IMG/VR virus record: IMGVR_UViG_3300031088_000008
Location: 224,001-288,000 of that record
DNA length: 64,000 nucleotides
Reading direction: 5' to 3' (one strand)
Source of the DNA: a virus
Lineage: Duplodnaviria; Caudoviricetes
Numbering within the stretch: the first letter of the stretch is position 1; the number at the start of each line of letters is the position of its first letter. Shown here piece after piece: positions 4,709 through 52,827 of this stretch. The position numbers were made by a program, and so were the translations under genes. A model generated the notes under the pieces. That model worked only from the letters and a program-made list of their open reading frames with translations. It had not been told where the DNA came from and searched no databases.

Positions 4709-4767
4709 AAAGCGGTTGATCCCCTGTCCAGTTCTGCTATTCAGGATTGGACAGCAGGGAGATCGAG

Positions 4768-5199
4768 ATGCTCATTTACAGGATCGAAAGCGACGAAGGC
4801 AAGGGCATTTACAGTGCTGGCTTTGGTCATCGCTTTACCCGCGCAGTCCTGGAGGGAAATGAGGATCGGCTCTGCCATCCCAGCCCCGAAGAGGAAGAGG
4901 AACTCCGCGTCTTTTGGCTGGGCCTGAAAATGAGCCGGGCCAAGCAACGCGACTGGGAGCTCAATGGCCGGCGTGAGTGGTTTTGCGGCTTTGACAGCAT
5001 GGAGCAGCTTCTCGCCTGGTGGTCACGCGATGGTCTAAAGCTGATGTGGATGACGATGCTCAAGCATGGTCGCACGGCGCGGATCGTCACTTACAAGATC
5101 AACGCCAATCAGACAAAGCGTGGCACCAAGCAAACGGTGTTCCGCAAGGCCAAAGCTGAACAGATTGCAAGCCAGCCCTTGGAGCGTTTTGTTCCATAA
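4768..5199 (+). CDS. Hypothetical protein
   Basis: Cassette promoter, GGGAGATCGAG-ATG. Confidence 0.7.
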   Translation: MLIYRIESDEGKGIYSAGFGHRFTRAVLEGNEDRLCHPSPEEEEELRVFWLGLKMSRAKQRDWELNGRREWFCGFDSMEQLLAWWSRDGLKLMWMTMLKHGRTARIVTYKINANQTKRGTKQTVFRKAKAEQIASQPLERFVP

Positions 5200-5237
5200 G
5201 ACGGTTGACAGTAGAGTTTTAGAAGCTAAGTTGGTTG

Positions 5238-5449
5238 AACAAGTTTGGTGCCCCCGATTTCAAAAAGTCCGAACGTCTTGGGCTTGGAGGCTCCAGCTGC
5301 CAAAGGTGACGATCTCGTTGTAGACAAAAATCATTGTCGTCCCGGGAGGTAAACGCGGTCGGGTAAGGGTGCTCAAGACGGGGTGTGCCGCGAAGCTGGA
5401 GAAAGACAAAGATCGTGGGGTGGATTGTTAGCGCAGTCCACCCCATTTT
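5238..5449 (+). ncRNA. Candidate structured ncRNA (about 210 nt)
   Basis: Promoter TTGACA 5205 / GCTA 5225; no RBS-led ORF; terminator 5416-5449; several long-range complementary segments. Confidence 0.55.
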
Positions 5450-5510
5450 CTTGGTTGACAAGGATTGTTCTGGGATTAATACCAGAACATAGGCAACGAG
5501 GAGACAGTGG

Positions 5511-5669
5511 ATGCAGATCGAACGGGCGTTTAAGGCAGAGGATGTAAAAGATCTTCCGCGCTTCAAACAAAGCCAGGGCGCTCTGAACGATCAGCTGGCC
5601 CGTCTTTACGATGTCGCCAACCAGCTTGGGCTGTATGATGCAGCCAGCTTTATCTCGCGGAGTTTCTGA
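5511..5669 (+). CDS. Small hypothetical protein (52 aa, not in ORF track)
   Basis: Cassette promoter + GAGGAG; MQIERAFKAEDVKDLP...FISRSF. Confidence 0.65.
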   Translation: MQIERAFKAEDVKDLPRFKQSQGALNDQLARLYDVANQLGLYDAASFISRSF

Positions 5670-5671
5670 AC

Positions 5672-6178
5672 ATGGACGACGAAATGAAGGCAGCCTATAA
5701 CGCTTGCTGCGACGCAATCATCGAATCGCAGATGAAGGATGCTGGGATGACCATTCCGCCTTCCGCTCCGCTTACCCTGTCGTCAGCGGCCTGGGATGGC
5801 GTCACTCTCCTGATGGGTCCCCACATCAGCGATTTTCCTGCTCTGCAGCACGATATGCGGGATGCTCCGCTGGTTCTGGCAATCGTTGGCGAGCCTGGCC
5901 TGGGCAAAAGCTACCACTTCAATCCCTTCACGCATGAGAGCGCAGCAGAGCGCGAGAGCCGCGAGGAAGGCCCAATGTGGCGCGAGCAACTGGTTGAGCG
6001 AAAGCTGACCATCAACTATCTGGGCTTCGATGAATATTTTCCCAACATCGACTATCAGAACTATCGACTGCTCGACGAGGACAAAAAGGCTCCTGAGTGG
6101 CAAAAGCGGCGCAACCGCAGCGCGTCGGCCAAACAGGATCTGATCGACAAGCTGAAGGCCAAGCGCAATGCTCGTTGA
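5672..6178 (+). CDS. Hypothetical protein with an isolated P-loop-like motif
   Basis: LAIVGEPGLGKS, but too short for a full AAA domain. Confidence 0.6.
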   Translation: MDDEMKAAYNACCDAIIESQMKDAGMTIPPSAPLTLSSAAWDGVTLLMGPHISDFPALQHDMRDAPLVLAIVGEPGLGKSYHFNPFTHESAAERESREEGPMWREQLVERKLTINYLGFDEYFPNIDYQNYRLLDEDKKAPEWQKRRNRSASAKQDLIDKLKAKRNAR

Positions 6179-6767
6179 TATCACGTTCCGCCCCTTTGCG
6201 GACGATCATCAGGCACGATACAGGGCGCTGGCCGAGGAGCACAACGCCAAGAATCCTGATGATCTCCTGCCCCTGGAGCTCAGCCATCCGCCCCGCATGG
6301 CCAAGGGCATGTACGTGGCAAATGGCAACTTCAACGTTCGTGACATCGTTCAGACAGTGGTCGAGGATGTTCCTCCCTATTATGAGCTGATGCGAAAGGA
6401 CAACTGGGAGGGCTATCACGAGGCCCGGAGCGCCTACAAGCGGAAGATGAACAAACTGTACTCGGAAAAGTACAAGAAGGGGCCGTACCGCGGCGTGGAA
6501 GGTCTGGGTGCATACGGGCTTTGCGATTCGCCTGAACAGTTCCTTGAATGCTTTCCGCACATCGCTGATGACGAGATTCCCCGCTTTCTAACCTTTTATG
6601 GCATCAAGCGAGAGCACCAGAGTCCGCAGGGTGGTTTCCGCTACCACAAGAACGGAACCTACTATGGCAAACAGAAGCCGCGTTGCGAGTATCTGTACGA
6701 TGACACCCACATCGACATGATCTGCGGCTTCCACATTTATAGGGTGGAGGATGTGATCAGCGCATGA
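6168..6767 (+). CDS. Hypothetical protein
   Basis: Operon-style overlap with neighbours. Confidence 0.7.
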   Translation: MLVDITFRPFADDHQARYRALAEEHNAKNPDDLLPLELSHPPRMAKGMYVANGNFNVRDIVQTVVEDVPPYYELMRKDNWEGYHEARSAYKRKMNKLYSEKYKKGPYRGVEGLGAYGLCDSPEQFLECFPHIADDEIPRFLTFYGIKREHQSPQGGFRYHKNGTYYGKQKPRCEYLYDDTHIDMICGFHIYRVEDVISA

Positions 6768-6976
6768 AACTATATCTGGCCAATGTAACGCTCCACGTCA
6801 GCCCCTACATGGAAAAGAGCTACCAGGAAAAGGTCCAGACGCTGGTCTGGGGCACCGACTACGAGGATGCGGAAAACAAGATTCGCGAACATTATACCAA
6901 CGACGACCAGTATGGTCTGGACAAAAGCGTCTGGGAGGTTGAACTAATTGCAGCCTTGGGTGATTTTCCCGGTTGA
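6764..6976 (+). CDS. Hypothetical protein
   Basis: ATGA overlap; GGAGG RBS. Confidence 0.65.
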   Translation: MKLYLANVTLHVSPYMEKSYQEKVQTLVWGTDYEDAENKIREHYTNDDQYGLDKSVWEVELIAALGDFPG

Positions 6977-7033
6977 CGCACCTGACTCTGGTGTTAAAAC
7001 CAGAACATAGGCAAGCAACACGGAGATCGGTCG

Positions 7034-7468
7034 ATGGCAAACTGGAACGAGATGAGCAAGGGCGCGCAGAAGGCAGCAAGCACGGCAGCGCACGTTCTCA
7101 ACGAGCTGGAAATCCAGGGCAAGGCGCGCTTTACGATGACCGAGGCCACGACGGCGATCTGGGGCACGTCGGGCACTGGCAACCCCAACGCGGTCCGGCT
7201 GATCGAGGCAACTGCGGCGCTAGGCTTTCTCAAGATCGTGCCCCACGGCAAGCGGACGCGCTACGTTGAAGCAGGTGCGAAGCCGGTCCCCAGCGAGGCG
7301 ATGTCGCAGGAGGACAAGGACTTTGCAAAGCGGATGCACCAGGAAACGATCCAGATCGAGGCAGACGCCATGGAGCGTCGGGTCAGGGACGCAATCCAGA
7401 ATGATCCCAAGAATGCCAGTAAGGTGTTTATGAGCGAGCTGGGCAACTTCCTCGGAGGTCGTCGCTGA
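7034..7468 (+). CDS. Hypothetical protein
   Basis: Cassette promoter and RBS. Confidence 0.7.
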   Translation: MANWNEMSKGAQKAASTAAHVLNELEIQGKARFTMTEATTAIWGTSGTGNPNAVRLIEATAALGFLKIVPHGKRTRYVEAGAKPVPSEAMSQEDKDFAKRMHQETIQIEADAMERRVRDAIQNDPKNASKVFMSELGNFLGGRR

Positions 7469-7805
7469 TGGCACAGGAAATCATGCCCAAGGCTCTCGAG
7501 GGAGAGATCGTGGCCGACCTCGCGCTCACTGGTCTGGAGACTCCAGAGGAGATCTACGATATGCTGGAGCGTCTGCATTCCGTTCTCCTCAAGCCGGTTG
7601 AGGCGGCGTGATGCGGCGCCTTCCCCTGATCCTCTTTTGGGTCCTGCTCGCTGGTGCGGTGCTCTTTGCGTTCGATCGCATGATGAAGCACGATGAACAG
7701 GTGCTTTGCAAGCGCGGCGTGGAAAGATTCTGCGACGTCTAAAAAGTGGTTGCAACTGTCTGTTCTGGTGTTAGATCCAGAACATCGGCAACGAGGAGAT
7801 CGAAA

Positions 7806-8255
7806 ATGAACGCAGAGCAGCAGGCACGTTTTGACGCAGTAGCGCCCATTGTGGCAGCACACGGCCGCGCACTCGTTGAGCTGGCCGCCGACAAGACGGT
7901 CGCAGTGGTGGGCAAGACGCGCAAGCGTTATGGTCAGGTCTATCCTGGTCAGGACAGCGGCCTCAAGGCAACTGTCGGCAAGCGCGAAGGTGTCAAGTTC
8001 ATCCGACTGTTTGGCACTTACAATAACAAGGCCGTGGATCGGACTTTCAAGGTCGGCGAAACTGTCGAGTACGACAGCTACAATCTTCGTTACTTGGGCG
8101 TGATCACCAACATCACCGACAAGCGCGTAACGGTCCAGCCACGTTATGGTGCAGGCGCCAAGTCGATGGATCTTTACGGATTCGCCTGGCGCAACTACAA
8201 TTTCAATCTTGAGCAGGCTGTCGAAGAAAATCACCAGACCAGCTATTATATCTGA
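7806..8255 (+). CDS. Hypothetical phage protein
   Basis: Cassette promoter, GAGGAGATCGAAA-ATG. Confidence 0.75.
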   Translation: MNAEQQARFDAVAPIVAAHGRALVELAADKTVAVVGKTRKRYGQVYPGQDSGLKATVGKREGVKFIRLFGTYNNKAVDRTFKVGETVEYDSYNLRYLGVITNITDKRVTVQPRYGAGAKSMDLYGFAWRNYNFNLEQAVEENHQTSYYI

Positions 8256-8436
8256 GGGAGTAAACCATGTTCATCGGTATCGCAATCGGGCTCATTCTCT
8301 GGACGATCTTTTTCGTCGCCAATCTCCTGACGCTGAAGAACTATGAGAACATCAACGTCAAGATGACCTTCTGCTGGTTCGTGGTCTTCGTGAGCTTCTT
8401 CGGCGCAGCGGGCTATCTGATCTCACTGTTCTTCTG

Positions 8437-8688
8437 ATGCAACTGGCGATCATCGAGGCAGTAATCGACAACTATGGTCGACTCAGCCGGGTCATCGAGG
8501 AGATCGCCAGAAAGCACGTGGAGGCCGAGAAGTCTGAAAAGGACTTTCAGGTCTTCAAGACCAACGCCCATATGGAGTCCTTCTACGTTGAGGAGGACTC
8601 CACCATCACAGTCTATTTTGATTACAGCCATCCCTACGAGGGCGACGAGACGATCTCCTTTGATGTCTCGGAGATTGAGCACTTTTAG
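8437..8688 (+). CDS. Acidic hypothetical protein
   Basis: TGATG coupling. Confidence 0.6.
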   Translation: MQLAIIEAVIDNYGRLSRVIEEIARKHVEAEKSEKDFQVFKTNAHMESFYVEEDSTITVYFDYSHPYEGDETISFDVSEIEHF

Positions 8689-8727
8689 TTTCTTGCGGCG
8701 AGGTGCTCCCTAGCGTAACATTCCGCT

Positions 8728-9162
8728 ATGAATGTTCTCATTGTAGGCGATCGGCCTGGACCCAACACGGATCCCAAAGATCCACTGTTCATCCACACGA
8801 CCACTGGCGCGGCTGCGCGGCTTGCCAAGATGATGGCTCTGGACAGTGATGCCTATCACGCAATCCGCCGCATCAACGCTCGTCACGATGGTGAAAAGCT
8901 TCTGGAACTCGATGAAGCGCGAACCCGCCTCCGCAAGACGCTGATGGATCTTGAGGGTCCCTGGCTAACGATCCTCGTGGGAGCCGAGGCAGCGCGCGTC
9001 TATGGCGGTTCCCTGATAGCAGGAAACCCCGTTAGCAGTGGCGATCTCCGTGCCCTCTACATTCCCCACACAAGTGGGATGAATCGTTTCTGGAACGTCC
9101 CCGAAAACGTCCAGTTCTATGAGATGCTCCTAAAAGCGGAACTGGCTAAGATAACTGGTTGA
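8728..9162 (+). CDS. Uracil-DNA glycosylase superfamily-like protein
   Basis: VLIVGDRPG (motif A-like), ILVGAEA, IPHTSGMN (HPS-like motif B). Confidence 0.6.
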   Translation: MNVLIVGDRPGPNTDPKDPLFIHTTTGAAARLAKMMALDSDAYHAIRRINARHDGEKLLELDEARTRLRKTLMDLEGPWLTILVGAEAARVYGGSLIAGNPVSSGDLRALYIPHTSGMNRFWNVPENVQFYEMLLKAELAKITG

Positions 9163-9220
9163 CGTGCTCAACTCTGGTGCTATTCCTGGTACATAGGAAA
9201 CGCACACAGGGAGACAGCAG

Positions 9221-9592
9221 ATGGCCGTTGTGATCAAGATCAAGGCGACGAAGATTTCGGCAAAGAGCAAGCAGGATATCATCCGCAAGCTCGAAGGTGA
9301 TTTCCGCACTGGTTTCCAGCGCCATTACGGCTACGGTCTGGTCGGTCGACGGGATGGCCGTTACGATGGCATCGTCCGCCTTTACAGCCTCGAGAAGCAC
9401 AATCGGAAGGTGCAGGTCACCAAGAAGCTGATCACTCGCGGCAAGGACAAGGGCAAGCTCGCAGAGACGCGGACGGTGCTTCGTGAGAGCGGCTGGATCG
9501 CCCACTACTACGATATCCCCGAGGATATGGTCGAGACGGCGGGTACTTCGCAGGGTACTCGGACGTTCAAGCTCAAGCTGAAGGGCGCGTAA
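9221..9592 (+). CDS. Basic hypothetical protein
   Basis: Cassette promoter and RBS. Confidence 0.7.
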   Translation: MAVVIKIKATKISAKSKQDIIRKLEGDFRTGFQRHYGYGLVGRRDGRYDGIVRLYSLEKHNRKVQVTKKLITRGKDKGKLAETRTVLRESGWIAHYYDIPEDMVETAGTSQGTRTFKLKLKGA

Positions 9593-9828
9593 TGGACTGT
9601 GGTCATCAGTGCCATGAGATCGGGGGTCCCTGGATAGCAGAGGACCCCAACTGCCCCATTCATGGCACCAACGGCGTTGGGGAAGATCTTGAGCGTATGG
9701 TTGACATGCGTGAGGTCATCCGTCTTCTGGTCGAGGCACTGGAACTTCATGAGCGGAACGCCCACTGCTCGCTTTCCCTGGATAGTGAGGACAAGGCGTT
9801 GATCGAGAGGGCCAACTCTTTTCTGTAA
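9592..9828 (+). CDS. Hypothetical protein
   Basis: TAATG coupling; CxxxC...CPIH. Confidence 0.6.
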   Translation: MDCGHQCHEIGGPWIAEDPNCPIHGTNGVGEDLERMVDMREVIRLLVEALELHERNAHCSLSLDSEDKALIERANSFL

Positions 9829-9892
9829 AACTGGTTGACAGCCCTGTCCAGTTTGCTAGGACAGGGGTGTAGGCAACGTAGGGAGAAACAAG

Positions 9893-10069
9893 ATGAGCAA
9901 CACGACGGGAAAGCGGGGCGTTCGCAACATGCAGCGCCGCCAGGTGCGACGTGTTCTCAACGGCTCCCCTGAGTTCTTCACCCGCGCTGGCTCGGCCATC
10001 ACCATCCGCAAGGGCTGGGGCGGCGGCATCGGAAAGAACAATCTCCTCGACCGCAGCGTGGAGGCATAA
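9893..10069 (+). CDS. Small basic protein (58 aa, not in ORF track)
   Basis: Cassette promoter + GGGAG; MSNTTGKRGVRNMQRR... Confidence 0.6.
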   Translation: MSNTTGKRGVRNMQRRQVRRVLNGSPEFFTRAGSAITIRKGWGGGIGKNNLLDRSVEA

Positions 10070-10070
10070 A

Positions 10071-10373
10071 ATGGGCTACGCGGATCTTCTGAGCGGCTCC
10101 AGTATTGCTGGCATGCTGGCACAGGCCATCGCCGAAATGAGCACCCAGACCGAGGACACTCCTCACTGGGAAGAGGGTCGGCAGATCGACATGGATGCGT
10201 TCGATCGTCTCCCACGTCAGGTTCGCGACCACATCAACGAGCATGGCAGCTTTTACCCCATCGAGGACGTCCTCTGGGAACATCAGAACGATCATCGCGG
10301 TGACTGGGAGCTCACGCTGGTCTGGCTGCTGGAATGTGAGGACTTGGAGCGCGAACTCGCGACCGTCCACTGA
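10071..10373 (+). CDS. Hypothetical protein
   Basis: GGAGG RBS; start corrected to 10071. Confidence 0.65.
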   Translation: MGYADLLSGSSIAGMLAQAIAEMSTQTEDTPHWEEGRQIDMDAFDRLPRQVRDHINEHGSFYPIEDVLWEHQNDHRGDWELTLVWLLECEDLERELATVH

Positions 10374-10822
10374 TGAGCAGCCGTCCCAAAGCCCCTGTTG
10401 GTCTCTTTATTGGCGGACCACGTTGCAAGCGGTGCGATGTTCCGTTTGCCTCTGGCATAATGAGCGATGGTATTGGCTACTGCCGAAACTGTCAATGGGA
10501 ACAAGGCTATGAGGGACCGCAGCGTGAGAGCCAGTGCCTTTCCTGTTTCAACAACATTGGGCTTGACAAAAAGGGTCACGTTCAATGCGCGGCGCTGATG
10601 TATCAGATGCGCGATGGCACCTGGAGGGATCGAACCAACCAAGCGGAACGTTGTCACTTCATTGAAATGGGCATGAAGAAGATCTGTCAGCCCATTGTTC
10701 CAGATACTCGCAAGAAGCCTGAGTTCATGTGCGAATGTTATGAGGACTTAAAGGGCAAGAGCCGGAACTGTGTTCAGGTAATGGATCCAGAAAACTTCTT
10801 CTCGCGCAAGAGATTCTGGTAG
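10373..10822 (+). CDS. Cys-rich (Zn-finger-like) protein
   Basis: CxxC x3; TGATG coupling. Confidence 0.6.
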   Translation: MSSRPKAPVGLFIGGPRCKRCDVPFASGIMSDGIGYCRNCQWEQGYEGPQRESQCLSCFNNIGLDKKGHVQCAALMYQMRDGTWRDRTNQAERCHFIEMGMKKICQPIVPDTRKKPEFMCECYEDLKGKSRNCVQVMDPENFFSRKRFW

Positions 10823-10873
10823 ACAACCAGGATGGGTCTGCTATCCAGAATGCAGACAACGAGGAGAAACGCG

Positions 10874-11530
10874 GTGGCGAAGACGATCGAACAACTGACG
10901 GCAGATCTTGATCGAGCCCGCAATGCTCTCAAGAGGGCCCAGGACAACTTCCACATCGCCCACAACGCTTTCACCACCGCCCAGCTGGCCGAAGAGGCCA
11001 AGGAAGCGATGACGCTGGAAAAGGCGCTGGAAACCAACGTGGCCAGCGGCTGGAACAAGCGCGGCGATGCGTATCTCTCGCAGCTTTCCTGGAAGGGCGC
11101 ATGGGCCGGCACTGGTCTGCGGAACGGTGGCGGTCACTGGTGCCGGACGGATCAGAACTGCCTCACGGTCGCGGTCAACCACAAGTGGGATGACGACAAG
11201 CTGGTGACCCTGAGCCAGCTGATCGAAAGCGTCCTGCCCGTGATCCGCCCCGGAATGTTCGAGGGAACGCTCAAGCTGACCAGCAAGGGAGCAGCGGTCA
11301 AGACTGACCTGATGCGCGGATTTAACATTGCGGAGCACACTCTTTCCCGCTATAGCGACTGGAAGTTGGCGTGGATCCAGGGTGACGAGTGGGCGATCTT
11401 TGATCACCGTGACATCGATCGCAGCTGGGGCAGGGCTCGGGTTACTGGTTCGCTTTTGGAATGCTTGAAGGAAATCAGGCAGTACCTCTGGAGCGAGGGT
11501 GGGACTTATTCGGAAGAGGATGACAACTGA
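10874..11530 (+). CDS. Hypothetical protein with N-terminal coiled coil
   Basis: Cassette-like promoter, GAGGAG, GTG start. Confidence 0.7.
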   Translation: MAKTIEQLTADLDRARNALKRAQDNFHIAHNAFTTAQLAEEAKEAMTLEKALETNVASGWNKRGDAYLSQLSWKGAWAGTGLRNGGGHWCRTDQNCLTVAVNHKWDDDKLVTLSQLIESVLPVIRPGMFEGTLKLTSKGAAVKTDLMRGFNIAEHTLSRYSDWKLAWIQGDEWAIFDHRDIDRSWGRARVTGSLLECLKEIRQYLWSEGGTYSEEDDN

Positions 11531-46562: not shown

Positions 46563-47810
46563 GTGTCGCATATTGATGCAGGAGAAACGGTCAGGGCAGT
46601 GCGCTACCAGAACACCTGGTTGCAGATGGCCGATCTTGGCCTCTCGGACTATCAGATCGACCTGATCCAAAATGCAGAAGGCGTCGCAGGAGCCTGGCCC
46701 GACAACGTTCGAAGCTACGTGATCCGCGCACATCTCTATGATCCTCGTGGCGAAGTTGAGTCCATGAAGAACATGAAGCGCCTCAACATCGTGAGCGTTC
46801 GTGAGGACGGTCGCTACTGGCTTACTGGCAAGGGTGAGCTGTACCGCAAGGCGCTGGTTGAGAATCTCCCAGAGGTCAAGGCCCCCAAGATCAACCTCCC
46901 CGTTGTGGTCGAGGATCAAATGGACATCAACCTGGGCCGCGATGGTCTGATGGTAACGGCCAGCAAGTTCTGGTACGTTTGGACGCATCGTGACGAGATC
47001 AGGGCCGCACGGGACAAGAAGTGGCTTGAGGGCTTTCAGAATGGTCAAAAGGAGATCGATGAAGCGATCACCAAGATCCTGGAGCCCCGCGAACCAATCG
47101 TCCTAAAGCCGGAGCCCAAAGTCAACCCCTACTGGAGTGAAGCCCAGCAGCGTAAGAATAACGATCTGTATTGGATGACCCCGGATGCCTTCTGGCTTAA
47201 TCCTCGTGGCATCCTCGCTGAGCCCACGCCGGCTCCCGACTGGTGGACTGTTCCTGAGAACTATCAGCCCAAGGTCTATATTCCCCTCTCGACTGATGAG
47301 CTGGTCGATCAGAGCCTTCTGCCTCCGCCGACTGTTGGTCCTCAGGGTGTCACCGGCTTCCCAGGAATTCGGCAGGCAACAGCCGAGGAGATCGCGGCCA
47401 AGCATCGTCAGAAGAGTGCCGATATGGTCATTGACGAGATCCTCGCAGAGCTTGATCGTCTTGATGCCGAGCAGGTCCAGGAATATGCGGAGTACGAGTA
47501 CTCCATTGCAAAGAACTTTGATCACCACGATCTGGTCATGGTACAATATGGTGACGAGGTCGCTGGCTTCCCAACTGCACAGGAGGCCAACTTGTGGCTT
47601 GCGGCAAAGAAGCAAGCTGCTCGAATGGCTGAACAGCAGGCATACGTTGACGAAAATCGTCGCCAGCAAAAATTGGCGCAGGACCGCTTGCTCCAAGCTG
47701 CCAAGGCCAAGGTTCGCGGACAGAACAACTTCACGGACAATCGCGGCTACGAATATAGCAGCTACAGCGGGAGCAGCTATGACAGCGGTGGTTCGAGCAG
47801 CGACTGGTAA
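46563..47810 (+). CDS. Hypothetical protein with S/G/Y-rich tail
   Basis: 415 aa; ends YSGSSYDSGGSSSDW. Confidence 0.75.
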   Translation: MSHIDAGETVRAVRYQNTWLQMADLGLSDYQIDLIQNAEGVAGAWPDNVRSYVIRAHLYDPRGEVESMKNMKRLNIVSVREDGRYWLTGKGELYRKALVENLPEVKAPKINLPVVVEDQMDINLGRDGLMVTASKFWYVWTHRDEIRAARDKKWLEGFQNGQKEIDEAITKILEPREPIVLKPEPKVNPYWSEAQQRKNNDLYWMTPDAFWLNPRGILAEPTPAPDWWTVPENYQPKVYIPLSTDELVDQSLLPPPTVGPQGVTGFPGIRQATAEEIAAKHRQKSADMVIDEILAELDRLDAEQVQEYAEYEYSIAKNFDHHDLVMVQYGDEVAGFPTAQEANLWLAAKKQAARMAEQQAYVDENRRQQKLAQDRLLQAAKAKVRGQNNFTDNRGYEYSSYSGSSYDSGGSSSDW

Positions 47811-47873
47811 AAAGCGGTTGACGCGCTGCCTATTGGTGCTAACTCTGGTTTATAGGCAAACAGGAGATAGACG

Positions 47874-48233
47874 ATGGACATCGACGAAATGAAGGTTTAT
47901 GCTGCTGAGCACGTTCTCAACGAGCTTTGCGCGCCCAGCCAGGGCAGCATCTATCCCGGACTGGGCGGCATCGGTCGCTATCTCGTTCGCGCAACGGCCC
48001 AGAGCGCGCATGAGAACGCATCCCATCTGGGCAAGGTCGAGACTCCCGCTGGCGGTTTCGAAGCCATGCAGACCGCCGCTGTTCAGGACTTTGTTCTCGG
48101 CATCCTGGGAATGGGTGAGTTCATCGACGAGCGTGGGCTGACGGTTCATCATCGTACGCCAACACAGGCCGCTCAGGAACTGGTCAGCGCGGTCTGGCAC
48201 GCCTACATTGGATGGGCGCAGGCGGCCAAATAA
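47874..48233 (+). CDS. Hypothetical protein
   Basis: Cassette promoter and RBS. Confidence 0.7.
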   Translation: MDIDEMKVYAAEHVLNELCAPSQGSIYPGLGGIGRYLVRATAQSAHENASHLGKVETPAGGFEAMQTAAVQDFVLGILGMGEFIDERGLTVHHRTPTQAAQELVSAVWHAYIGWAQAAK

Positions 48234-48321
48234 CCGCAACATTCTCAATCCGCTAAGTACAACAGTTATTGATTGTTGAGCGGAGTTGTACCATAATGGG
48301 TTAACTCCTAGGGGATTGAGA

Positions 48322-48768
48322 ATGGACGACCTAACCAGTATTGCGGCTGGGCTCCAGCAGCTTGCCGCCAAAGCAGAAACAAAGAAGCCCAACACGGGCA
48401 CCGAAAACGTCATGATCGTTGATGACGAGCCCATGATCCTTGAGTTCGCAATGGACGTTCTCGAGGATTATGGCTATACGGTCAAGGGCGCCCTAAACGC
48501 CAATGAGGCTATCCAAAAGCTGGTCGGCGGTTTCAAGCCTGCTATCATGTGCTGCGACATTGTGTTGCCGGGTGGTATGAATGGCGTGGAACTTGCGCGG
48601 AAAGTCATGGAAGTGATGCCGGACGTCAAGATCCTGCTTTGCAGCGGATACGGAGCAGGCATGCTCGACGGCAGCAAAAACCAGGATGGCTTCAGCATGT
48701 TGGCTAAGCCCTATCAGGTTGAAGAGCTGGCACAGAGGGTGCGGAATATTCTCGACGGAAAAGAGTAA
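48322..48768 (+). CDS. Single-domain response regulator (receiver)
   Basis: VMIVDDE, phospho-Asp in CCDIVLPGGMNGVELA, SGY, KPY. Confidence 0.9.
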   Translation: MDDLTSIAAGLQQLAAKAETKKPNTGTENVMIVDDEPMILEFAMDVLEDYGYTVKGALNANEAIQKLVGGFKPAIMCCDIVLPGGMNGVELARKVMEVMPDVKILLCSGYGAGMLDGSKNQDGFSMLAKPYQVEELAQRVRNILDGKE

Positions 48769-48835
48769 ATCCTGGTTGACGTGCCAATCTCTCCTCTTTA
48801 TAGGAAGTATTGGAAACGCAGACAGGAGACACCAA

Positions 48836-49204
48836 ATGTCCATCGCAGCAGACGACTACCAGAACACGCAGAACGAAATCGCACGCCGCAATTACGCGCT
48901 GACGACCGAAACGCACGACTGCGAGAACATGCTCCAGATCAAGTGCGGTGGCGAGATTCTCGTTACGGTCTGCCAGCCGGCTGGTCCGACTGTTCCCACG
49001 GAGTTCCTGGTTTTCAACGGTGATGGCCTCGATGCCGAGGACAACGACCTGACGGCCGCCGACGCGGTCAAGGTGTTTCCGGTTCGTCTGGATGTCAATG
49101 ATGCGTGGCGCCAGGCTGCGCGCTTTGGCTATCTTCACGCACTGGCCCGCATGATGACTTCGGATATTCGTCAGGAGACCGAAGAACTGCTGATGATGGC
49201 TTAA
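48836..49204 (+). CDS. Hypothetical protein
   Basis: Cassette promoter and RBS. Confidence 0.7.
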   Translation: MSIAADDYQNTQNEIARRNYALTTETHDCENMLQIKCGGEILVTVCQPAGPTVPTEFLVFNGDGLDAEDNDLTAADAVKVFPVRLDVNDAWRQAARFGYLHALARMMTSDIRQETEELLMMA

Positions 49205-49731
49205 ACGCCCATCAGCTTTAGCGTTAGGTCACGAAGCCGATACAACGCGGCTTCCTGATCTTTTCGCAACCTACGAGGGATACGGTCGGCAACGCAAATG
49301 GTGCCCACACTGTATCCCTCGCTCGTCGTCAGCGACAATCCAGAATAAAATCTCAGATAATCGTAGGTTCCATTGACGAATGGAAGCCCGCAGACCTGTG
49401 AGTCCGCTTGTGCATCATAGATGATCACGGGCTGGTCGGGGCTTCTCGTCAACAGGTTGCAGAACGTTTCCTCGCGACAATAGCGAAGATCGGGGTTGGG
49501 ACTGCCCGTTAGAAGTGCTTTGTAGATGGTACGTTCGTCATCAATCAAGCTGACGGCCGCGACGGGCGTTTCGCAGATCTGTGATGCCAGGGCTGCGATA
49601 TGTAGGAAGTGCTCGTCTGGGAGTTCTCCGATACGGTCCAAGATTTTGGTTACCGCACAGGCGCGGATCGTCTCGGCCAGTTCTTCGCTCAAGCCTGTAA
49701 CGGCCTTTGCGGTGTTCTCGAGATTGTCCAT
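49201..49731 (-). CDS. Stand-alone GAF domain protein
   Basis: A.QIC.TPVA.VSLID..R...REETFC...DAQAD...PFV...LRFYSG..L...G...GTICVAD..PR.L; GAGGAG RBS. Confidence 0.85.
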   Translation of the reverse strand: MDNLENTAKAVTGLSEELAETIRACAVTKILDRIGELPDEHFLHIAALASQICETPVAAVSLIDDERTIYKALLTGSPNPDLRYCREETFCNLLTRSPDQPVIIYDAQADSQVCGLPFVNGTYDYLRFYSGLSLTTSEGYSVGTICVADRIPRRLRKDQEAALYRLRDLTLKLMGV

Positions 49732-49868
49732 CGTTTTCTCCTCTTGCTCTATTTAGTGAACAAAAAATGTCCTGGTGTGAAAAAAGCGGTTGACGTAAAC
49801 CAGGACGGCATTAGGTGTGTTGAGGACAGGGCAGCAGTTGTCCTGGGCATAACGAGGAGATCGAAATC

Positions 49869-50186
49869 GTGTCTTACAAGAATCTGAACATCAATGCAGC
49901 AGCAACCCTGGCACTCGTCGGTTCGGCCACCAAGGCTCGGATTCGGATGCGCGGTGAGACTCTGCAGATTCGCTTCACCGATCGCACCTCGCTGGTGAAT
50001 CTCCCCAAGGACGAGCAGGTCGCCAATCTCTCGGTCAAGGGCAACGGTCGTCGGCTCGGTCTGCGGTCGGCATTCGCTGGTCACCTGGAAGCCGGCAGCA
50101 AGGTCGCACTGGCGAACCCCAAGTATGGCTGGTACGATGTCGTGCCGAGCACCGAGAACATCGCAGCTTCGGTCACCGCAAACTGA
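49869..50186 (+). CDS. Paralog family A protein 3
   Basis: NLNINAAATLALVG...KARIR..G..LQI..T.R.S.VNLPKDE; KYGW. Confidence 0.7.
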   Translation: MSYKNLNINAAATLALVGSATKARIRMRGETLQIRFTDRTSLVNLPKDEQVANLSVKGNGRRLGLRSAFAGHLEAGSKVALANPKYGWYDVVPSTENIAASVTAN

Positions 50187-50406
50187 TCGGCGGGGGAGGG
50201 GATGATCTCCTCTCCCCTCCCCCTGCATAGGAGAAACGTGATGGCAAAGCTGATCATGGTGACCAAAAAGGGTCGTCATCGGAAAGAACATACTTTCCCC
50301 ATCGAGTTCGATGCCACGCAGGATCCCATCGCACGGGCGGCGGCAATCAGCACTGCAACGGCCAGTCTCCTGGACCCCGTTGTCAACTGGCGGATCGAGG
50401 AATAAA

Positions 50407-50841
50407 ATGGTGTGGGCTGTATTCCAAGACCATCGCGGTGTTCTACATTGCGAGCGCGTCAATGAGGGAATCCAGTGCTGGACCAAAGTTATTCCGGTGC
50501 GGCCCGAGATTCGTAGCTTTCTGGGTCGTGTAATTCAAAAGGGCCGCCAGGAAGAGACGCTTCTCCACACGGTGTTCCTGGAAAAGTTCTACGATCGGAA
50601 GGACTACACCGACAACGCTTTTGAACCCGCTGGTGAAGGCTACACGCTGGATCCTATGATGCGCTACATGAAGACCAACAAGTGGGGTCCCGTGAAGATT
50701 ATGGCGTTCATAAAATGTGACACCACAGGCCAGATACTGCATAGTAAGTTCAAAGCCTTTGAGCCGTTCTCTGAAAGCCAGGGACCCCGGCCGGGCAATG
50801 ATCGACTGGTAGCAATGGTGCATCAGTTGTCGGAGATTTGA
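50407..50841 (+). CDS. Hypothetical protein
   Basis: GAGGA RBS. Confidence 0.6.
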   Translation: MVWAVFQDHRGVLHCERVNEGIQCWTKVIPVRPEIRSFLGRVIQKGRQEETLLHTVFLEKFYDRKDYTDNAFEPAGEGYTLDPMMRYMKTNKWGPVKIMAFIKCDTTGQILHSKFKAFEPFSESQGPRPGNDRLVAMVHQLSEI

Positions 50842-51027
50842 TGTGGACGCTTTCGTGGGACTTGCTTTCTTATTCGTCGCAGTTTGCATCGTGTGTACCT
50901 TTGTAGTCGTAGGCCTCGCCCTCCTCATTGGTCTCCTGATGCTCATCGGAAAGCTGATTGTCTGGATGGCCTACCTTGGTGTGGTGTTCATTGCCCTGGC
51001 ATTAGTCAGCTGGATCGCGGTTAGTTC

Positions 51028-51738
51028 ATGGCAAGTATTTCGCGACTACTTTTCATAACCGGCACGTTCCTTGCAAGCCCAGTGGCTGCACAGGAACTCA
51101 AGCCACTTTGTCCCGATCGTGGGGCGTTTCAACCCTGCACCGTTGATCCCGGACACATTCAAGTTGAGATTGGTCTCCTTGACTGGTTCCAGGATGCCGA
51201 TGATACCCGTATGATCGCCGATGCGGTTGTCCGGCTGGGACTGGATGACACATCGGAAGTTCAGCTGGCCATGAGCCCCATGGTGCGTAAGAGCTTTGCT
51301 CAGGGTCGTGGTGATCTCCGCCTAAGCTACCGGAAGCGTCTTGTAGAAGGCGACTTCAGCCTAGCAGTCCAGCCCAGTCTCCAGTTGCCAACGGGTTCTC
51401 AGGGGCTCTCTGGTGATCGGTTGATCCCCGGAATTGCCATTGGGAGCACCTACGATCTAACTCCCAGCACTCAATTCTATCTCACGCCCTATGCGGTCAA
51501 GGGTCAGAATCTGCTCGGAGGCACATTTCTAGGTGTCAATCAGATCGTCCATGGTCCACTGGGTGCTTCGGCCGAGGTGATGTTTCAGCATCAAAAGGGC
51601 GAAACGCAGAGCAGTGCGGACTTCACTCTCACTTATACAGTAGGTAGTAGGATGGAGTTCGACACTTCAGCGAACTTCGGTCTAACTAGGCAAACTCCCG
51701 CTGTTGAACTTGTAGTTGGAGTAACGCGTCGCTTCTAG
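51028..51738 (+). CDS. Outer-membrane beta-barrel 'transporter' (MetA-pathway-like)
   Basis: Signal peptide; LCPDR...PCTVDPGH.QVE; amphipathic strands; C-terminal Phe. Confidence 0.7.
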   Translation: MASISRLLFITGTFLASPVAAQELKPLCPDRGAFQPCTVDPGHIQVEIGLLDWFQDADDTRMIADAVVRLGLDDTSEVQLAMSPMVRKSFAQGRGDLRLSYRKRLVEGDFSLAVQPSLQLPTGSQGLSGDRLIPGIAIGSTYDLTPSTQFYLTPYAVKGQNLLGGTFLGVNQIVHGPLGASAEVMFQHQKGETQSSADFTLTYTVGSRMEFDTSANFGLTRQTPAVELVVGVTRRF

Positions 51739-51784
51739 TGTGAAGTGTGGGGAATCGCAGAATTCTGCGGCTCTGAGGAGTAGA

Positions 51785-51909
51785 CACTTACAAGGGCACT
51801 TACAAGGGCACTTACAAGGGCACTTACAAGGGCACTTACAAGGGCACTTACAAGGGCACTTACAAGGGCACTTACAAGGGCACTTACAAGGGCACTTACA
51901 AGGGCACTT
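51785..51909. repeat. Perfect 12-bp tandem repeat (CACTTACAAGGG)x10 + CACTT
   Basis: Directly visible; intergenic. Confidence 0.97.
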
Positions 51910-51954
51910 CAACATAGTTGTTGACAAGTTGCTAATTTCAGTTAGTTGATGTGC

Positions 51955-52025
51955 AGTTGATGTTGACCTTGGTTGGCCACTGACATCAGTATTCAAAGGC
52001 GGTTGCTTCGGCGGCCGCCTTTTTT
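51955..52025 (+). ncRNA. Candidate about 70-nt antisense sRNA
   Basis: Promoter TTGACA 51921 / GTTA 51941; hairpin 51957-51989; terminator 51998-52025; loop complementary to 52091-52102. Confidence 0.55.
51998..52025 (+). terminator. Intrinsic terminator
   Basis: ggcggttgc-ttcg-gcggccgcc-tttttt. Confidence 0.85.
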
Positions 52026-52158
52026 CTTGCCTGAGCACTCTTTTTCTGCTTGACGCGAGTAGAACACGGTTACATTAAGGACAGCGCAAGGTGGCCAACC
52101 AAAACACTTTGTAAAAAGTAAAGCAAGCAACGTGCTTGCTACAGAAAAGGTTAACGTT

Positions 52159-52761
52159 ATGAAGAACACTCGCTTTGAAACCGGCTGCAATCTCCCGGGT
52201 CTGGAATCGCTCGTCATTGGGCAGTATGGCGCCTCGCTGTCGAAGAACAACAACCAGACGCCGGCCATGATGGTGCTGCTCTTCACGTTCGATACTGCGG
52301 AGGAGCGCAACAAATATCGGTATGTTCGCATCGAACAGGCCGGTGAGGGATATCTGGCCCGCCTGATGCAGAATCGTGCTCCAGGCTATCTGAGCAAGGG
52401 AGAAACTGCCGCAGTAAAACTCGGCGACTACAATAACTCCACTCGCCAGGCGTCTGCAGGTCGCGCGCAGAGCTGGCTGGGCCTCGATGATGTGATGTCC
52501 GAAATGGGCAAGAACACTGCGGTCATCAGCTGCATCAGCGAAGCGTATGATGACTACCAGGGCAACGGTCCGGAGATGCACGTCTACTTTACCGTTGAAG
52601 CAGTTCGCAACGTTTCGGAAACCACGACCACTGAGCCGCTTCTGGATTCGCTCCCGGCTGCTGAAAAGTTCATCATTGACATGAGCCTCCCAGCCGACGT
52701 GATCGCAAAGCTTCTGGATGTTGCCAAGATCAAGGGACAGGTTCCCGAATACCAGTTCTAA
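52159..52761 (+). CDS. Hypothetical protein with a structured 5' leader
   Basis: Promoter TTGACG 52050; leader hairpin 52122-52140; AAAGG RBS. Confidence 0.75.
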   Translation: MKNTRFETGCNLPGLESLVIGQYGASLSKNNNQTPAMMVLLFTFDTAEERNKYRYVRIEQAGEGYLARLMQNRAPGYLSKGETAAVKLGDYNNSTRQASAGRAQSWLGLDDVMSEMGKNTAVISCISEAYDDYQGNGPEMHVYFTVEAVRNVSETTTTEPLLDSLPAAEKFIIDMSLPADVIAKLLDVAKIKGQVPEYQF

Positions 52762-52827
52762 AATCCTGGTTGACACCGGCCACCAGTCTGCTAGGACTGG
52801 TGGCGTAGGTGCAACAGGAGATCGAAA

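What the first reader, a model, noticed from the sequence alone, without database searches (positions are those of the whole stretch)
4724..52804. Sequence-variable hairpins centred on the -10 element of the repeated promoters
Seen in sequence: at least 16 cassette promoters have an inverted repeat with the G(C/T)TA -10 element in or beside the loop, and the arm sequences differ between copies. Examples: 4724-4754 (13 bp, 2 G-T), 5466-5489 (8), 7761-7784 (8), 9842-9866 (8), 14827-14854 (11, 1 G-T), 20203-20231 (10), 21410-21429 (8), 22060-22084 (8), 24251-24271 (8, 1 G-T), 34940-34969 (12), 35168-35189 (8, 1 G-T), 36487-36510 (9), 36816-36835 (7), 38352-38381 (12, 1 G-T), 43031-43065 (14, 1 G-T), 52779-52804 (10). 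Within these stems the imperfections are G-T on the sense strand, and most have no U-tract. Inference: structure rather than sequence is under selection, in the sense strand or its RNA. Options are a DNA hairpin that pre-opens or gates the promoter (cf. N4 vRNAP hairpin promoters) or a processing/3'-protecting hairpin in read-through RNA. Copies with the gtctgtttatcgga leader mostly lack it, suggesting two promoter classes.
Basis: partly seen in the sequence, partly recalled or inferred. Interest (0 to 1): 0.8.

Follow-up and report, generated by a model that had tools for sequence, protein, structure and literature searches.

The report
Promoter hairpins insulating phage gene cassettes
A giant uncultured phage puts a bacterial-type promoter before most of its small genes, and in about four in ten the promoter's own spacer can pair with sequence just downstream, which probably marks or silences RNA that reads in from the gene before; it is a new variant of cassettes already known from T4-type phages.

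Summary
All 16 listed hairpins exist as described. They far exceed a null that keeps the CTGG/CCAG content: of 39 plus-strand window promoters, 10 have 8 or more Watson-Crick pairs around the -10 box, against 1.4 expected, and 0 of 5000 permutations reach this. The excess recurs genome-wide and in three relatives at about 55% protein identity.

The 5' arm lies between -35 and -10. By predicted start-site geometry, the hairpin can form only in read-through RNA or in DNA.

The promoter spacer pairs with the downstream Shine-Dalgarno sequence in 58 of 249 promoters. This class shows sense-strand G-U bias and compensatory changes between orthologues.

Hairpins are commoner where a co-directional gene abuts the promoter (96 of 184 against 11 of 46). 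Indels between near relatives end inside these promoter modules.

The closest known kinds are PeSL promoter/stem-loop cassettes of T4-type phages and the T4 gene e/soc translational masks. This scan has flagged PeSL-like cassettes before, on other phage DNA.

Its exact role is inferred. N4-like promoter gating is not supported.

The parts
2560..52840 (+). Array of 39 co-directional promoter modules (strict set). Each has an A-rich stop-codon region, (ct)GGTTGA/C hexamer, a 14-nt variable spacer, G(C/T)TA -10, a short conserved leader, AGGAGAtcg ribosome site and a start codon.
4724..4754 (+). -10-bracketing hairpin, 11 WC + 2 G-T pairs. CCC/GGG further out reaches the ribosome site.
5466..5489 (+). 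-10-bracketing hairpin TGTTCTGG/CCAGAACA (8 bp). It lies directly after a canonical terminator at 5415-5446.
7761..7784 (+). -10-bracketing hairpin, 8 bp, with the same arms as at 5466.
9842..9866 (+). -10-bracketing hairpin CCCTGTCC/GGACAGGG (8 bp).
13675..13711 (+). Spacer-to-ribosome-site pairing TCCTGGTGT/ACACCAGGA (9 bp); the 3' arm overlaps the Shine-Dalgarno sequence.
14827..14854 (+). -10-bracketing hairpin (10 WC + 2 G-T) around an ACTA box. No ribosome site follows, so it is not in my strict promoter set.
20203..20231 (+). -10-bracketing hairpin GCTCCTGTTC/GAACAGGAGC (10 bp).
21410..21429 (+). 8-bp hairpin with part of the GCTA box in the stem. It is not in my strict set, because no ribosome site lies in range.
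22060..22084 (+). -10-bracketing hairpin CCAGGATT/AATCCTGG (8 bp).
24243..24290 (+). Nested structure. The inner -10 hairpin at 24251-24271 has 8 WC + 1 G-T pairs. The outer helix ATCTCCTC/GAGGAGAT (8 bp) covers the Shine-Dalgarno sequence.
34940..34969 (+). -10-bracketing hairpin, 12 bp.
35168..35189 (+). -10-bracketing hairpin (7 WC + 1 G-T). With outer pairs it has one C-A mismatch, which is a C-G pair in the 98%-identical relative L004.
36487..36510 (+). -10-bracketing hairpin, 9 bp.
36816..36835 (+). -10-bracketing hairpin of 7-8 pairs, followed by TTTTAT. It is one of the few with a terminator-like tail.
38352..38381 (+). -10-bracketing hairpin, 11 WC + 2 G-T pairs.
42569..42612 (+). Spacer-to-ribosome-site pairing TCCTGT/ACAGGA (6 bp core; 9 pairs with one mismatch).
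43031..43065 (+). -10-bracketing hairpin, 13 WC + 1 G-T pairs. The 5' arm complements the conserved leader. L004 has a different 5' half here and no hairpin.
47827..47858 (+). 7-bp pairing TGCCTAT/ATAGGCA with an 18-nt loop around the -10. The three orthologous promoters in relatives each carry a hairpin with different arms.
52779..52804 (+). -10-bracketing hairpin, 10 WC + 1 G-T pairs. In L004 the whole promoter before the same downstream gene is replaced and the hairpin is weak.
56314..56349 (-). Minus-strand promoter with spacer-to-ribosome-site pairing CCTGGT/ACCAGG (6 bp).

Best explanation
These are PeSL-like composite promoter/stem-loop modules of a T4-superfamily jumbo phage, and the pairing works in RNA that reads in from the upstream gene.

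Geometry. Each small gene has a host-type promoter (TTGAC, spacer, GCTA). The 5' arm of every hairpin lies in the promoter spacer, upstream of the predicted start site. A transcript started at that promoter therefore lacks the arm, and only read-through RNA can fold.

Two forms exist.
- Class B. The spacer carries an anti-Shine-Dalgarno tract that pairs with the gene's own ribosome site. The gene would then be translated from its own transcript but not from read-through RNA. This is the principle known for T4 genes e, soc, 49 and I-TevI.
The spacer pairs with the 10-14 nt between the -10 box and the start site. This forms a stable hairpin without a U-tract about 15-40 nt after the upstream stop codon. 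I infer that it sets the 3' boundary of the upstream cistron, either as a weak attenuator or pause, or as a barrier to 3' exonucleases after cleavage in the A/U-rich leader.

Together the two forms would make each cassette's expression independent of its neighbours.

Shown: the structures, their excess over chance, their geometry, their link to gene context, and covariation. Inferred: the start site, RNA folding in vivo, and the biochemical effect.
For: (1) Excess of within-promoter pairing over cross-promoter chimeras in four genomes. Promoters with 8 or more WC bp: 17 of 78 (2.6 expected), 15 of 56 (2.3), 16 of 66 (6.2), 7 of 49 (2.1). In the window: 10 of 39 against 1.42, with 0 of 5000 permutations reaching this.

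(2) Geometry. Class A 5' arms lie mostly at +3 to +21 from the T of TTGAC, with a few starting just upstream of it. In most, the 3' arm ends at +28 to +42, most often +34, where a start site is expected about 7 nt after the -10. Pairing peaks on symmetry centres +20 to +23, on the GCTA box.

(3) Class B.
- Spacer-to-ribosome-site stems of 7 or more bp: 6 of 78, 5 of 56, 16 of 66 and 6 of 49, against 0.6-0.9 with shuffled spacers.
- CTCCT occurs in 6, 7, 17 and 3 spacers, against about 1 expected. Its reverse complement AGGAG occurs in 0.
- Predicted unpaired probability of the ribosome site is 0.33 in read-through RNA against 0.42 with a shuffled upstream part (247 promoters, p=2e-7). It is 0.59-0.66 in self-started RNA in the three genomes computed; the fourth gave no value.
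- G-T against A-C next to class B cores is 38 against 17 (p=0.006); the chimera baseline is 0.51.

(4) Context. Hairpins of either class occur at 96 of 184 promoters that abut a co-directional ORF, against 11 of 46 intergenic promoters that do not (p=0.0008). For class A alone: 46 of 184 against 4 of 46, p=0.016.

(5) Orthologues at about 30-75% protein identity keep masks or hairpins with changed arms.
- Genome 396376(-) GGTCTCC/GGAGACC; G001 GATCTCCTAT/ATAGGAGATC; G002 ACCTCCTGTG/CACAGGAGGT.
- 44084(+) CCAC/GTGG against G002 CAAC/GTTG.
- Window 47818 and all three orthologues are class A with four different arm pairs.

(6) Precedent read in papers.
[quoted passage not shown] (7) The genome has a T4 gp23-type capsid gene (Pfam Gp23, E=1e-95).

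(8) Differences from a 94-98% identical relative, and from contigs of four public DNA runs, begin or end in these promoter modules.
Against: - No RNA data exist. No RNA run holding this phage was listed, so start sites, 3' ends and read-through are all predicted.
- Class A shows no sense-strand wobble bias (G-T 23 against A-C 19; 6 against 3 inside extended stems). On that count it is equally compatible with a DNA-level palindrome.
- Class A has no U-tract, while the phage does use canonical terminators with U-tracts (for example 5415-5446). Efficient intrinsic termination is therefore unlikely.
- Hairpins are not rarer behind a detectable canonical terminator: 9 of 107 against 15 of 123, p=0.39. 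The hairpin at 5466-5489 sits right behind one.
- Class A does not lower the predicted accessibility of the ribosome site (0.42 against 0.36 for promoters without a hairpin).
- Retention between orthologues is only a trend: 15 of 26 against 9 of 29, p=0.06, and the pairs are not independent.
- In the near relative L004 the hairpins at 43031 and 52779 are absent, because the promoter half or the whole promoter was exchanged.
- 139 of 249 promoters have no hairpin or only a weak one.
- Against chimeras rather than shuffles, the masking of the ribosome site is only marginally stronger (p=0.04-0.15 per genome). This is because any pyrimidine-rich spacer can pair with the conserved site.
Confidence: 0.55

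Rival explanations
1. DNA-level hairpin or cruciform. Under negative supercoiling the inverted repeat extrudes and displays the -10 box in a single-stranded loop. This would gate the promoter, activating it as in N4 early promoters or shutting it off by destroying the -35/-10 spacing.
For: - Class A stems are symmetric, with no G-T over A-C bias (23 against 19).
- Symmetry centres sit tightly on the -10 box.
- Stems of 8-14 bp with loops of 3-9 nt are common.
Against: - The promoters keep a sigma70-type -35 and -10 at one fixed spacing. Extrusion would remove the duplex spacer that a sigma70-type holoenzyme needs (inference from established promoter structure).
- Many loops are 8-14 nt, which disfavours extrusion (general knowledge).
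- The sister class pairs with the ribosome site and shows RNA-type wobble bias.
- Class A is enriched where a co-directional gene abuts (p=0.016), which a purely DNA-level gate does not predict.
- The search for a T7/N4-type single-subunit polymerase was uninformative, because its control also failed.
Confidence: 0.1
2. Neutral by-product of mutation. Template switching at quasi-palindromes (seeded by the conserved CTGG...CCAG) and patchy gene conversion between promoter copies would make and extend perfect inverted repeats without any selected function.
For: - Several arms extend the conserved CTGG/CCAG or complement the conserved leader (5466, 7761, 36487, 43031).
- Class A has no strand bias.
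- Fine-scale mosaicism of spacers exists between the window and L004, for example at 47818.
Against: - Many arm pairs have no CTGG/CCAG seed (20203, 38352; genome 44084 and 111667).
- Hairpins are enriched at junctions with a co-directional upstream gene.
- Hairpins recur at orthologous junctions with unrelated arms in phages at about 30-40% protein identity.
- The chimera null already keeps the seeds.
Confidence: 0.12
3. The hairpins serve recombination. They mark or stimulate the crossover sites at which cassettes are gained, lost or swapped, as proposed for PeSL mini-circles, rather than acting on gene expression.
For: - Against L004, the window's alignment blocks break at 35230/35381, 37331/37340, 43013/43044, 47885/48232 and 51630/52756, at or next to promoters.
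- Contigs of four DNA runs carry insertions or replacements at 7753/7764, 9870-9877, 13695/13708, 14810/14816, 20773 and 22630. All lie inside promoter modules.
Against: - Seams also occur at promoters without hairpins (13695, 22630). The conserved roughly 60-nt promoter and leader homology suffices for homologous exchange.
- Sequence-variable arms reduce homology rather than add to it.
- This reading does not explain pairing with the ribosome site.
Confidence: 0.08
4. Palindromic operators for DNA-binding regulators that overlap the -10 box.
For: Inverted repeats over a -10 box are the classic layout of repressor operators (general knowledge). One palindrome outside the window, TTGCGATAG...CTATCGCA at genome 38119, is conserved in sequence in G001 while its loop differs.
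Against: At least a dozen unrelated arm sequences occur in one genome. That would need as many regulators. Arms change freely between orthologues while pairing stays.
Confidence: 0.03

Closest known systems
PeSLs (promoter-early stem-loops) of T4-type phages RB49/phi1, T4/PST and KVP40/nt-1. Arbiol et al. 2010, PMC2839356 (outline, section 13 and passages read). Comeau et al. 2014, PMC4122927 (parts 1-2 of 3 of the text read).
   Same: - Layout: upstream stop codon in an A(T)-rich stretch, a host sigma70-type promoter, a stem-loop that can lie between -35 and -10 or overlap the -10, then a Shine-Dalgarno sequence and start codon.
- Dozens of copies stand in front of small genes of unknown function.
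- G-T pairs occur in the stems.
- Indels and replacements between close relatives end in the motif.
- The host phage has a T4 gp23-type capsid gene.
   Different: - The promoter consensus is TTGAC...GCTA rather than TTGACA-N17-TATAAT. It resembles the alphaproteobacterial type (resemblance recalled, not tested here).
- Stems are unrelated in sequence from copy to copy, rather than G(n)-loop-C(n) or A3-4G3-loop-C3T3-4.
- There is no U-rich tail, so the terminator role measured for one RB49 stem-loop cannot be assumed.
- Only 110 of 249 promoters carry a stem.
- About half of those stems pair with the ribosome site, which the PeSL papers do not describe in the parts I read.
- Mini-circles were not tested.
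Translational masks of T4 genes e, soc, 49 and I-TevI. Review by Uzan and Miller 2010, PMC3014915 (passages read).
   Same: The ribosome site is sequestered in a helix whose 5' strand is encoded in or upstream of a promoter. Longer upstream-started transcripts are therefore silent, and promoter-started transcripts are translated. This matches class B by predicted geometry, wobble bias and compensatory change.
   Different: - In T4 it is a handful of genes, with late (gp55-type) promoters, and it serves to delay expression.
- Here it is a sigma70-type promoter motif used at 58 of 249 promoters, and 25 of 66 in one relative.
- No translation data exist here.
N4 early promoters for the virion RNA polymerase
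   Same: An inverted repeat at the promoter core. The idea is that a hairpin, not a sequence, is what is read.
   Different: N4 hairpins are recalled as short (5-7 bp stem, 3-nt loop) with conserved bases, read by a phage single-subunit polymerase with help from supercoiling and SSB. Here there are a -35 and a -10 at sigma70 spacing, loops of 3-14 nt and free arm sequences.
Intercistronic 'decay terminator' hairpins: the puf operon of Rhodobacter capsulatus and REP elements of E. coli
   Same: A stable hairpin without a U-tract sits shortly after a stop codon inside a polycistronic RNA, where it is thought to stop 3' exonucleases. This is the role I infer for class A.
   Different: Those hairpins are not built into a promoter. 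No decay data exist here.
RNase III processing hairpins of T7/T3 early RNA (recalled).
   Same: Hairpins punctuate a long early transcript between genes.
   Different: T7 sites are recalled as about two helical turns long with an internal loop. Here the stems are 7-14 bp, and the phage has no RNase III gene of its own (control valid).

Membership tests
PeSL (promoter-early stem-loop) cassette | Repeated host sigma70-type promoter in intergenic spaces, with the upstream stop codon in an A/T-rich stretch | tested here: met
   78 strict promoters genome-wide, 43 of them in the window. The consensus is aaaAactGGTTGAC-N15-GCTA. The stop codon lies a median 7.5-10 nt before TTGAC.
PeSL (promoter-early stem-loop) cassette | Stem-loop inside or next to the promoter (between -35 and -10, or overlapping the -10) | tested here: met
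   52 class A and 58 class B stems in 249 promoters of four genomes, in excess over chimeras. However, 139 of 249 have none or only 6 bp.
PeSL (promoter-early stem-loop) cassette | Shine-Dalgarno sequence and start codon of a small gene at the 3' end of the motif | tested here: met
   This was required by my promoter definition. AGGAGAtcg is visible in most listed promoters.
PeSL (promoter-early stem-loop) cassette | Indels and replacements between close relatives end in the motif (modular shuffling) | tested here: met
   L004 against the window. Joints in contigs of 4 DNA runs lie in promoter modules. Mini-circles were not tested.
PeSL (promoter-early stem-loop) cassette | Stem-loop acts as a transcription terminator or attenuator | not testable with these tools
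   No RNA runs were listed. The sequence argues against strong intrinsic termination: 1 of 48 has 5 or more T in the next 8 nt. The published assay is in a supplementary figure I could not open.
PeSL (promoter-early stem-loop) cassette | Host phage is T4-type | tested here: inconclusive
   A Pfam Gp23 hit at E=1e-95 exists in the genome. However, this is a 417-kb uncultured phage with no nucleotide match in the phage collection. I did not test other T4 core genes.
T4 e/soc/I-TevI-type translational mask | Ribosome site paired in the long transcript; the 5' strand of the helix lies upstream of the start site of a promoter just before the gene | tested here: met
   This is prediction only. The start site is inferred from the position of the -10 box.
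T4 e/soc/I-TevI-type translational mask | Translation low from long transcripts and high from promoter-started ones | not testable with these tools
   Needs reporters or ribosome profiling.
N4-type hairpin promoter | Short conserved hairpin (recalled: 5-7 bp stem, 3-nt loop) read by a phage single-subunit RNA polymerase | tested here: not met
   Loops are 3-14 nt, arms are free in sequence, and sigma70-type -35 and -10 boxes are present. The polymerase search with PF00940 was uninformative because its control rang nowhere.
Canonical intrinsic terminator | GC-rich hairpin followed directly by a U-tract | tested here: not met
   Mean 1.17 T in the 8 nt after the 3' arm, and 2 of 48 have 4 or more T. 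True terminators with U-tracts exist elsewhere in the window.

The most novel reading that the evidence does not exclude
The promoter spacer doubles as a 'self/non-self' switch for RNA across a whole clade of giant phages. By pairing with either the ribosome site or the pre-start region, it ensures that each portable gene cassette is expressed only from its own promoter. Translation would then be insulated without terminators. A bolder reading that is also still open is that the -10-bracketing stems act in DNA, as supercoiling-sensitive gates of host-type promoters.
Probability: 0.3. Interest if true: 0.65.

Novelty: new variant of a known kind. Interest (0 to 1): 0.45.

Why it matters
If the reading holds, it shows how a phage can pack about 60 co-directional promoters into 50 kb with few terminators and still keep each small gene under its own control. 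Insulation would be written into the promoter spacer, which also makes each cassette portable when it is shuffled.

It extends PeSL-type cassettes from enterobacterial and Vibrio T4-like phages to a clade of uncultured 280-465 kb phages found in plant-surface metagenomes. These use a different promoter consensus.

It also turns the T4 gene e/soc trick from a few special cases into a general design rule.

Practically, it gives compact, sequence-flexible insulator parts that could be tested in synthetic operons.

It is not a new principle. Both halves have published precedents, and this scan has repeatedly flagged PeSL-like cassettes in other phages.

Tried and rejected
- Nucleotide search of 5.7 kb of the window against the phage collection: no match. 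tRNA scan: none. Rfam at gathering thresholds over the window: 0 matches.
- PHROGs on 10 larger proteins: mostly no hit or 'unknown function', plus one endolysin-like hit. Not informative for this question.
- RNA evidence: no RNA holder was listed for window 33501-43500. Start sites and 3' ends could therefore not be examined.
- The DNA contigs laid on 4500-24499 list only 40 of about 1270 substitutions. One of those (5475, in a loop) lies in a hairpin, so no population-level covariation test was possible.
- Sense-versus-antisense folding energy looked striking at first (49 against 10 promoters). It proved largely compositional once chimeras were used as the null, and I dropped it as evidence.
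- The chimera null for masking of the ribosome site is weak, because the site is conserved. I replaced it with shuffled-spacer nulls.
- A link between hairpins and the absence of an upstream canonical terminator was not found (p=0.39; the detector is crude).
- Weaker -35 boxes in class A promoters: 13 of 52 are non-TTGAC, against 17 of 110 among promoters without hairpins. I did not pursue this.
- The idea that class A hairpins help or hinder masking of the ribosome site: no difference (0.42 against 0.36).
- Phage RNase III: absent, with a valid control. RegB (PF10715) and T7-type RNA polymerase (PF00940): the controls rang nowhere, so there is no conclusion.
- The close relative L004 is too similar (94-98%) to show compensatory changes. 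Most promoters are identical.
- I did not build a covariance model or use the count of structure pairs. The stems have different registers and unrelated arms, so no single consensus structure exists.
- Supplementary files of the PeSL papers are closed. These include the terminator and promoter assays in supplementary fig. S1 of PMC2839356, and they may bear on how strong such stem-loops are as terminators.

Full report
**What the window is.** The window is bases 224001-288000 of a single 416,714-bp virus record. It has no nucleotide match in the phage collection. The genome carries a T4 gp23-type major capsid gene (Pfam Gp23, E=1e-95), so it is an uncultured jumbo phage of the T4 superfamily. 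DNA runs that hold it are labelled phyllosphere or plant metagenomes.

From about 2.5 to 52.8 kb the plus strand is a row of small genes. GGTTGAC occurs 44 times in the window against 9.3 expected. G(C/T)TA follows GTTGA(C/T) at one fixed offset in 68 of 879 genomic sites, against 7 or fewer at other offsets. With a ribosome site and an open frame of 40 or more codons also required, I obtain 78 promoters genome-wide and 43 in the window, 39 of them on the plus strand. The consensus is aaaAactGGTTGAC-N15-GCTA, then a short conserved leader, then AGGAGAtcg and a start codon. The TTGAC...GCTA form resembles alphaproteobacterial housekeeping promoters; that resemblance is recalled, not tested. The upstream stop codon lies a median of 7.5-10 nt before TTGAC.

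**Checking the observation.** I paired the 5' half of each promoter with the 3' half of every other promoter.
- Genome-wide, 17 of 78 promoters have a contiguous Watson-Crick stem of 8 or more bp straddling the -10, against 2.4 expected. Six have 10 or more bp, against 0.22.
- Among the 39 plus-strand window promoters, 10 have 8 or more bp, against 1.42, and none of 5000 permutations reaches 10.
- MFE is -16 kcal/mol or lower in 15 of 78, against 1.5.
- Pairing concentrates on symmetry centres +20 to +23 from the T of TTGAC, on the GCTA box.
- Arms are unrelated between copies.
- The 8 nt after the 3' arm hold a mean of 1.17 T, and only 1 of 48 has 5 or more T.

The observation therefore stands. 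Two side claims are weaker.
- The 'G-T only' imperfections follow partly from how the stems were delimited. Next to the Watson-Crick cores I count G-T 23 and A-C 19.
- The apparent sense-strand stability (49 against 10 promoters) is mostly compositional, since chimeras show -1.69 kcal/mol of the observed -2.45.
- The four plus-strand window promoters with a gtctgtttatcgg-type leader do lack the hairpin. That is too few to establish two promoter classes, and leader type does not predict hairpins overall.

**Relatives.** A 574-aa protein of the window found three IMG/VR records at 53-56% identity and a metagenome contig at 98% (L004). I fetched the three virus records whole and applied the same promoter finder and the same null.

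The excess replicates. Promoters with 8 or more bp number 15 of 56 (2.3 expected), 16 of 66 (6.2) and 7 of 49 (2.1). The feature is thus a property of the clade.

**A second class.** Many of the best stems do not stop before the start site but reach the ribosome site. I sorted the 249 promoters of the four genomes as follows.
- Class A: stem of 7 or more bp that does not touch the Shine-Dalgarno sequence. There are 52.
- Class B: 3' arm overlaps the Shine-Dalgarno sequence. There are 58, including 25 of 66 in G002.
- Six-bp stems only: 29.
- No stem: 110.

Class B is not a composition effect.
- Spacer-to-ribosome-site stems of 7 or more bp occur in 6 of 78, 5 of 56, 16 of 66 and 6 of 49 promoters, against 0.6-0.9 with mononucleotide-shuffled spacers.
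- CTCCT occurs in 6, 7, 17 and 3 spacers and ranks first or joint first among the ten permutations of its letters. AGGAG occurs in none.
- The predicted unpaired probability of the ribosome site is 0.33 in read-through RNA against 0.42 with a shuffled upstream part (247 promoters, p=2e-7). It is 0.59-0.66 in RNA started at the predicted start site (three genomes; the fourth gave no value).
- Beside class B cores, G-T outnumbers A-C 38 to 17 (p=0.006, chimera baseline 0.51). Inside extended class B stems the count is 8 to 0. That is the signature of an RNA helix on the sense strand.

**Context and covariation.**
- Hairpins of either class occur at 96 of 184 promoters that directly follow a co-directional open frame of 60 or more codons. 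They occur at only 11 of 46 intergenic promoters without one (p=0.0008). For class A alone the figures are 46 of 184 against 4 of 46, p=0.016. Nineteen promoters lying inside long frames were set aside.
- Among 55 orthologous gene pairs between this phage and the three relatives, the hairpin state is kept in 15 of 26 pairs against 9 of 29 (p=0.06; pairs are not independent).
- Individual cases are clear. The gene at genome 396376(-) and its orthologues mask the ribosome site with GGTCTCC/GGAGACC, GATCTCCTAT/ATAGGAGATC and ACCTCCTGTG/CACAGGAGGT.
- 44084(+) and its G002 orthologue differ by CCAC/GTGG against CAAC/GTTG.
- The promoter at window 47818 and all three orthologues carry class A hairpins with four unrelated arm pairs.

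**Seams.**
- Against L004 (94-98% identical) the alignment breaks at 35230/35381, 37331/37340, 43013/43044, 47885/48232 and 51630/52756, at or next to promoters.
- At 43028 the window lacks a gene that L004 has. The window carries instead a promoter 5' half whose spacer complements the conserved leader over 14 bp, while L004 has no hairpin there.
- At 52770 the whole promoter is exchanged in front of the same gene.
- Contigs of four DNA runs from four studies show insertions or replacements at 7753/7764, 9870-9877, 13695/13708, 14810/14816, 20773 and 22630. All lie within promoter modules.

**What it most likely is.** By position the 5' arm (mostly +3 to +21) lies between -35 and -10. The 3' arm of class A ends most often at +34, where a start site is expected about 7 nt after the -10. 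A transcript started at the promoter therefore cannot contain the hairpin. It can form only in RNA arriving from upstream, or in DNA.

For class B the partner is the ribosome site, the wobble bias is RNA-like, and orthologues show compensatory change. [quoted passage not shown]

For class A the layout matches PeSLs of RB49/phi1. [quoted passage not shown] PeSLs occur in dozens of copies before small ORFans and act as seams of modular shuffling. One stem-loop reduced downstream lacZ like a strong terminator (PMC2839356, section 13 and passages; PMC4122927).

Class A stems lack U-tracts, and the phage has canonical terminators elsewhere. I therefore infer a weaker boundary role, either attenuation or pausing, or a barrier to 3' exonucleases after cleavage in the A/U-rich leader. 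This part is inference. Confidence in an RNA-level, read-through-dependent role overall is 0.55.

**Results against this reading.**
- There is no RNA evidence.
- Class A has no strand bias.
- There is no depletion behind detectable canonical terminators, and one hairpin (5466-5489) sits directly behind a terminator.
- Class A does not affect predicted access to the ribosome site.
- Hairpins are lost in the near relative where promoter halves were exchanged.
- More than half of the promoters have no hairpin.

**Rivals.**
- DNA cruciform gating (0.10) fits the symmetry. It conflicts with sigma70-type geometry and with the context dependence.
- Neutral growth of quasi-palindromes by template switching (0.12) fits the seeded arms. 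It does not fit the unseeded ones, the context, or the recurrence at orthologous junctions.
- A role in recombination (0.08) fits the seams. Seams also occur at promoters without hairpins, however, and variable arms lower homology.
- Operators (0.03) are excluded by the diversity of arms.

**Novelty.** Both halves of the explanation have published precedents, and this scan has noted PeSL-like cassettes in several other phage groups. Four things are new here.
- The promoter type and the phage clade.
- The free arm sequences centred on the -10, without a U-tail.
- The quantitative evidence for selection on pairing.
- The wholesale use of spacer-encoded masks of the ribosome site.

I rate it a new variant of a known kind, with interest 0.45.

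Noticed in passing
window 24243-24290: Two-tier structure. The inner hairpin would shorten the loop of the outer mask.
   Followed up: partly
window 4363, 12730, 34534 (plus strand) and 27868 (minus strand): Promoters with the gtctgtttatcgg leader can form a small hairpin inside their own 5' leader, just before the ribosome site (for example CTGTTT...AAACAG at 4363). This structure is transcribed, unlike the -10 hairpins.
   Followed up: no
G000 genome position 38119 (+), outside the window; G001 position 29747 (+): The palindrome TTGCGATAG...CTATCGCA overlaps the -35 and -10 of the promoter of a 437-aa protein gene. It is conserved in sequence between two phages at 71% protein identity, while its loop differs. 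It looks like a protein operator rather than an RNA hairpin.
   Followed up: no
window 42548-43044 against L004 11936-12726: L004 carries an extra gene of about 325 nt here. It is joined to the upstream gene by an overlapping ATGA and has no promoter of its own. The window has lost or never had it, and has a weak-looking -35 (TTGCGG) with a 14-bp hairpin instead.
   Followed up: partly
G002 (L032-L055), many promoters, for example locus L002 positions 11718, 20059, 20707: A promoter sub-family whose spacer reads GATCTCCTgttct, the exact complement of the conserved ribosome site AGGAGATC. This explains why 25 of 66 promoters in that relative are class B.
   Followed up: partly
window 5415-5446 and about 51990-52020: Canonical GC-rich terminators with T-runs. 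This shows that the host polymerase is expected to use ordinary intrinsic terminators. Further examples lie just upstream of promoters at 28407 and at genome 310916(-).
   Followed up: partly
window 14821-14854 and downstream: The promoter with an ACTA box and a 12-pair hairpin is followed by no ribosome site within range. It may drive a non-coding RNA, and another first-stage note calls 14855-15120 a GGA-rich small RNA.
   Followed up: no
window 18507-19173 and 21842-22508: Summed contig depth roughly doubles in these bins in all four DNA runs, and many contigs end with unlike sequence at 18840/18876 and 22432/22470. This suggests conserved segments shared with other organisms or with paralogous copies.
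   Followed up: no
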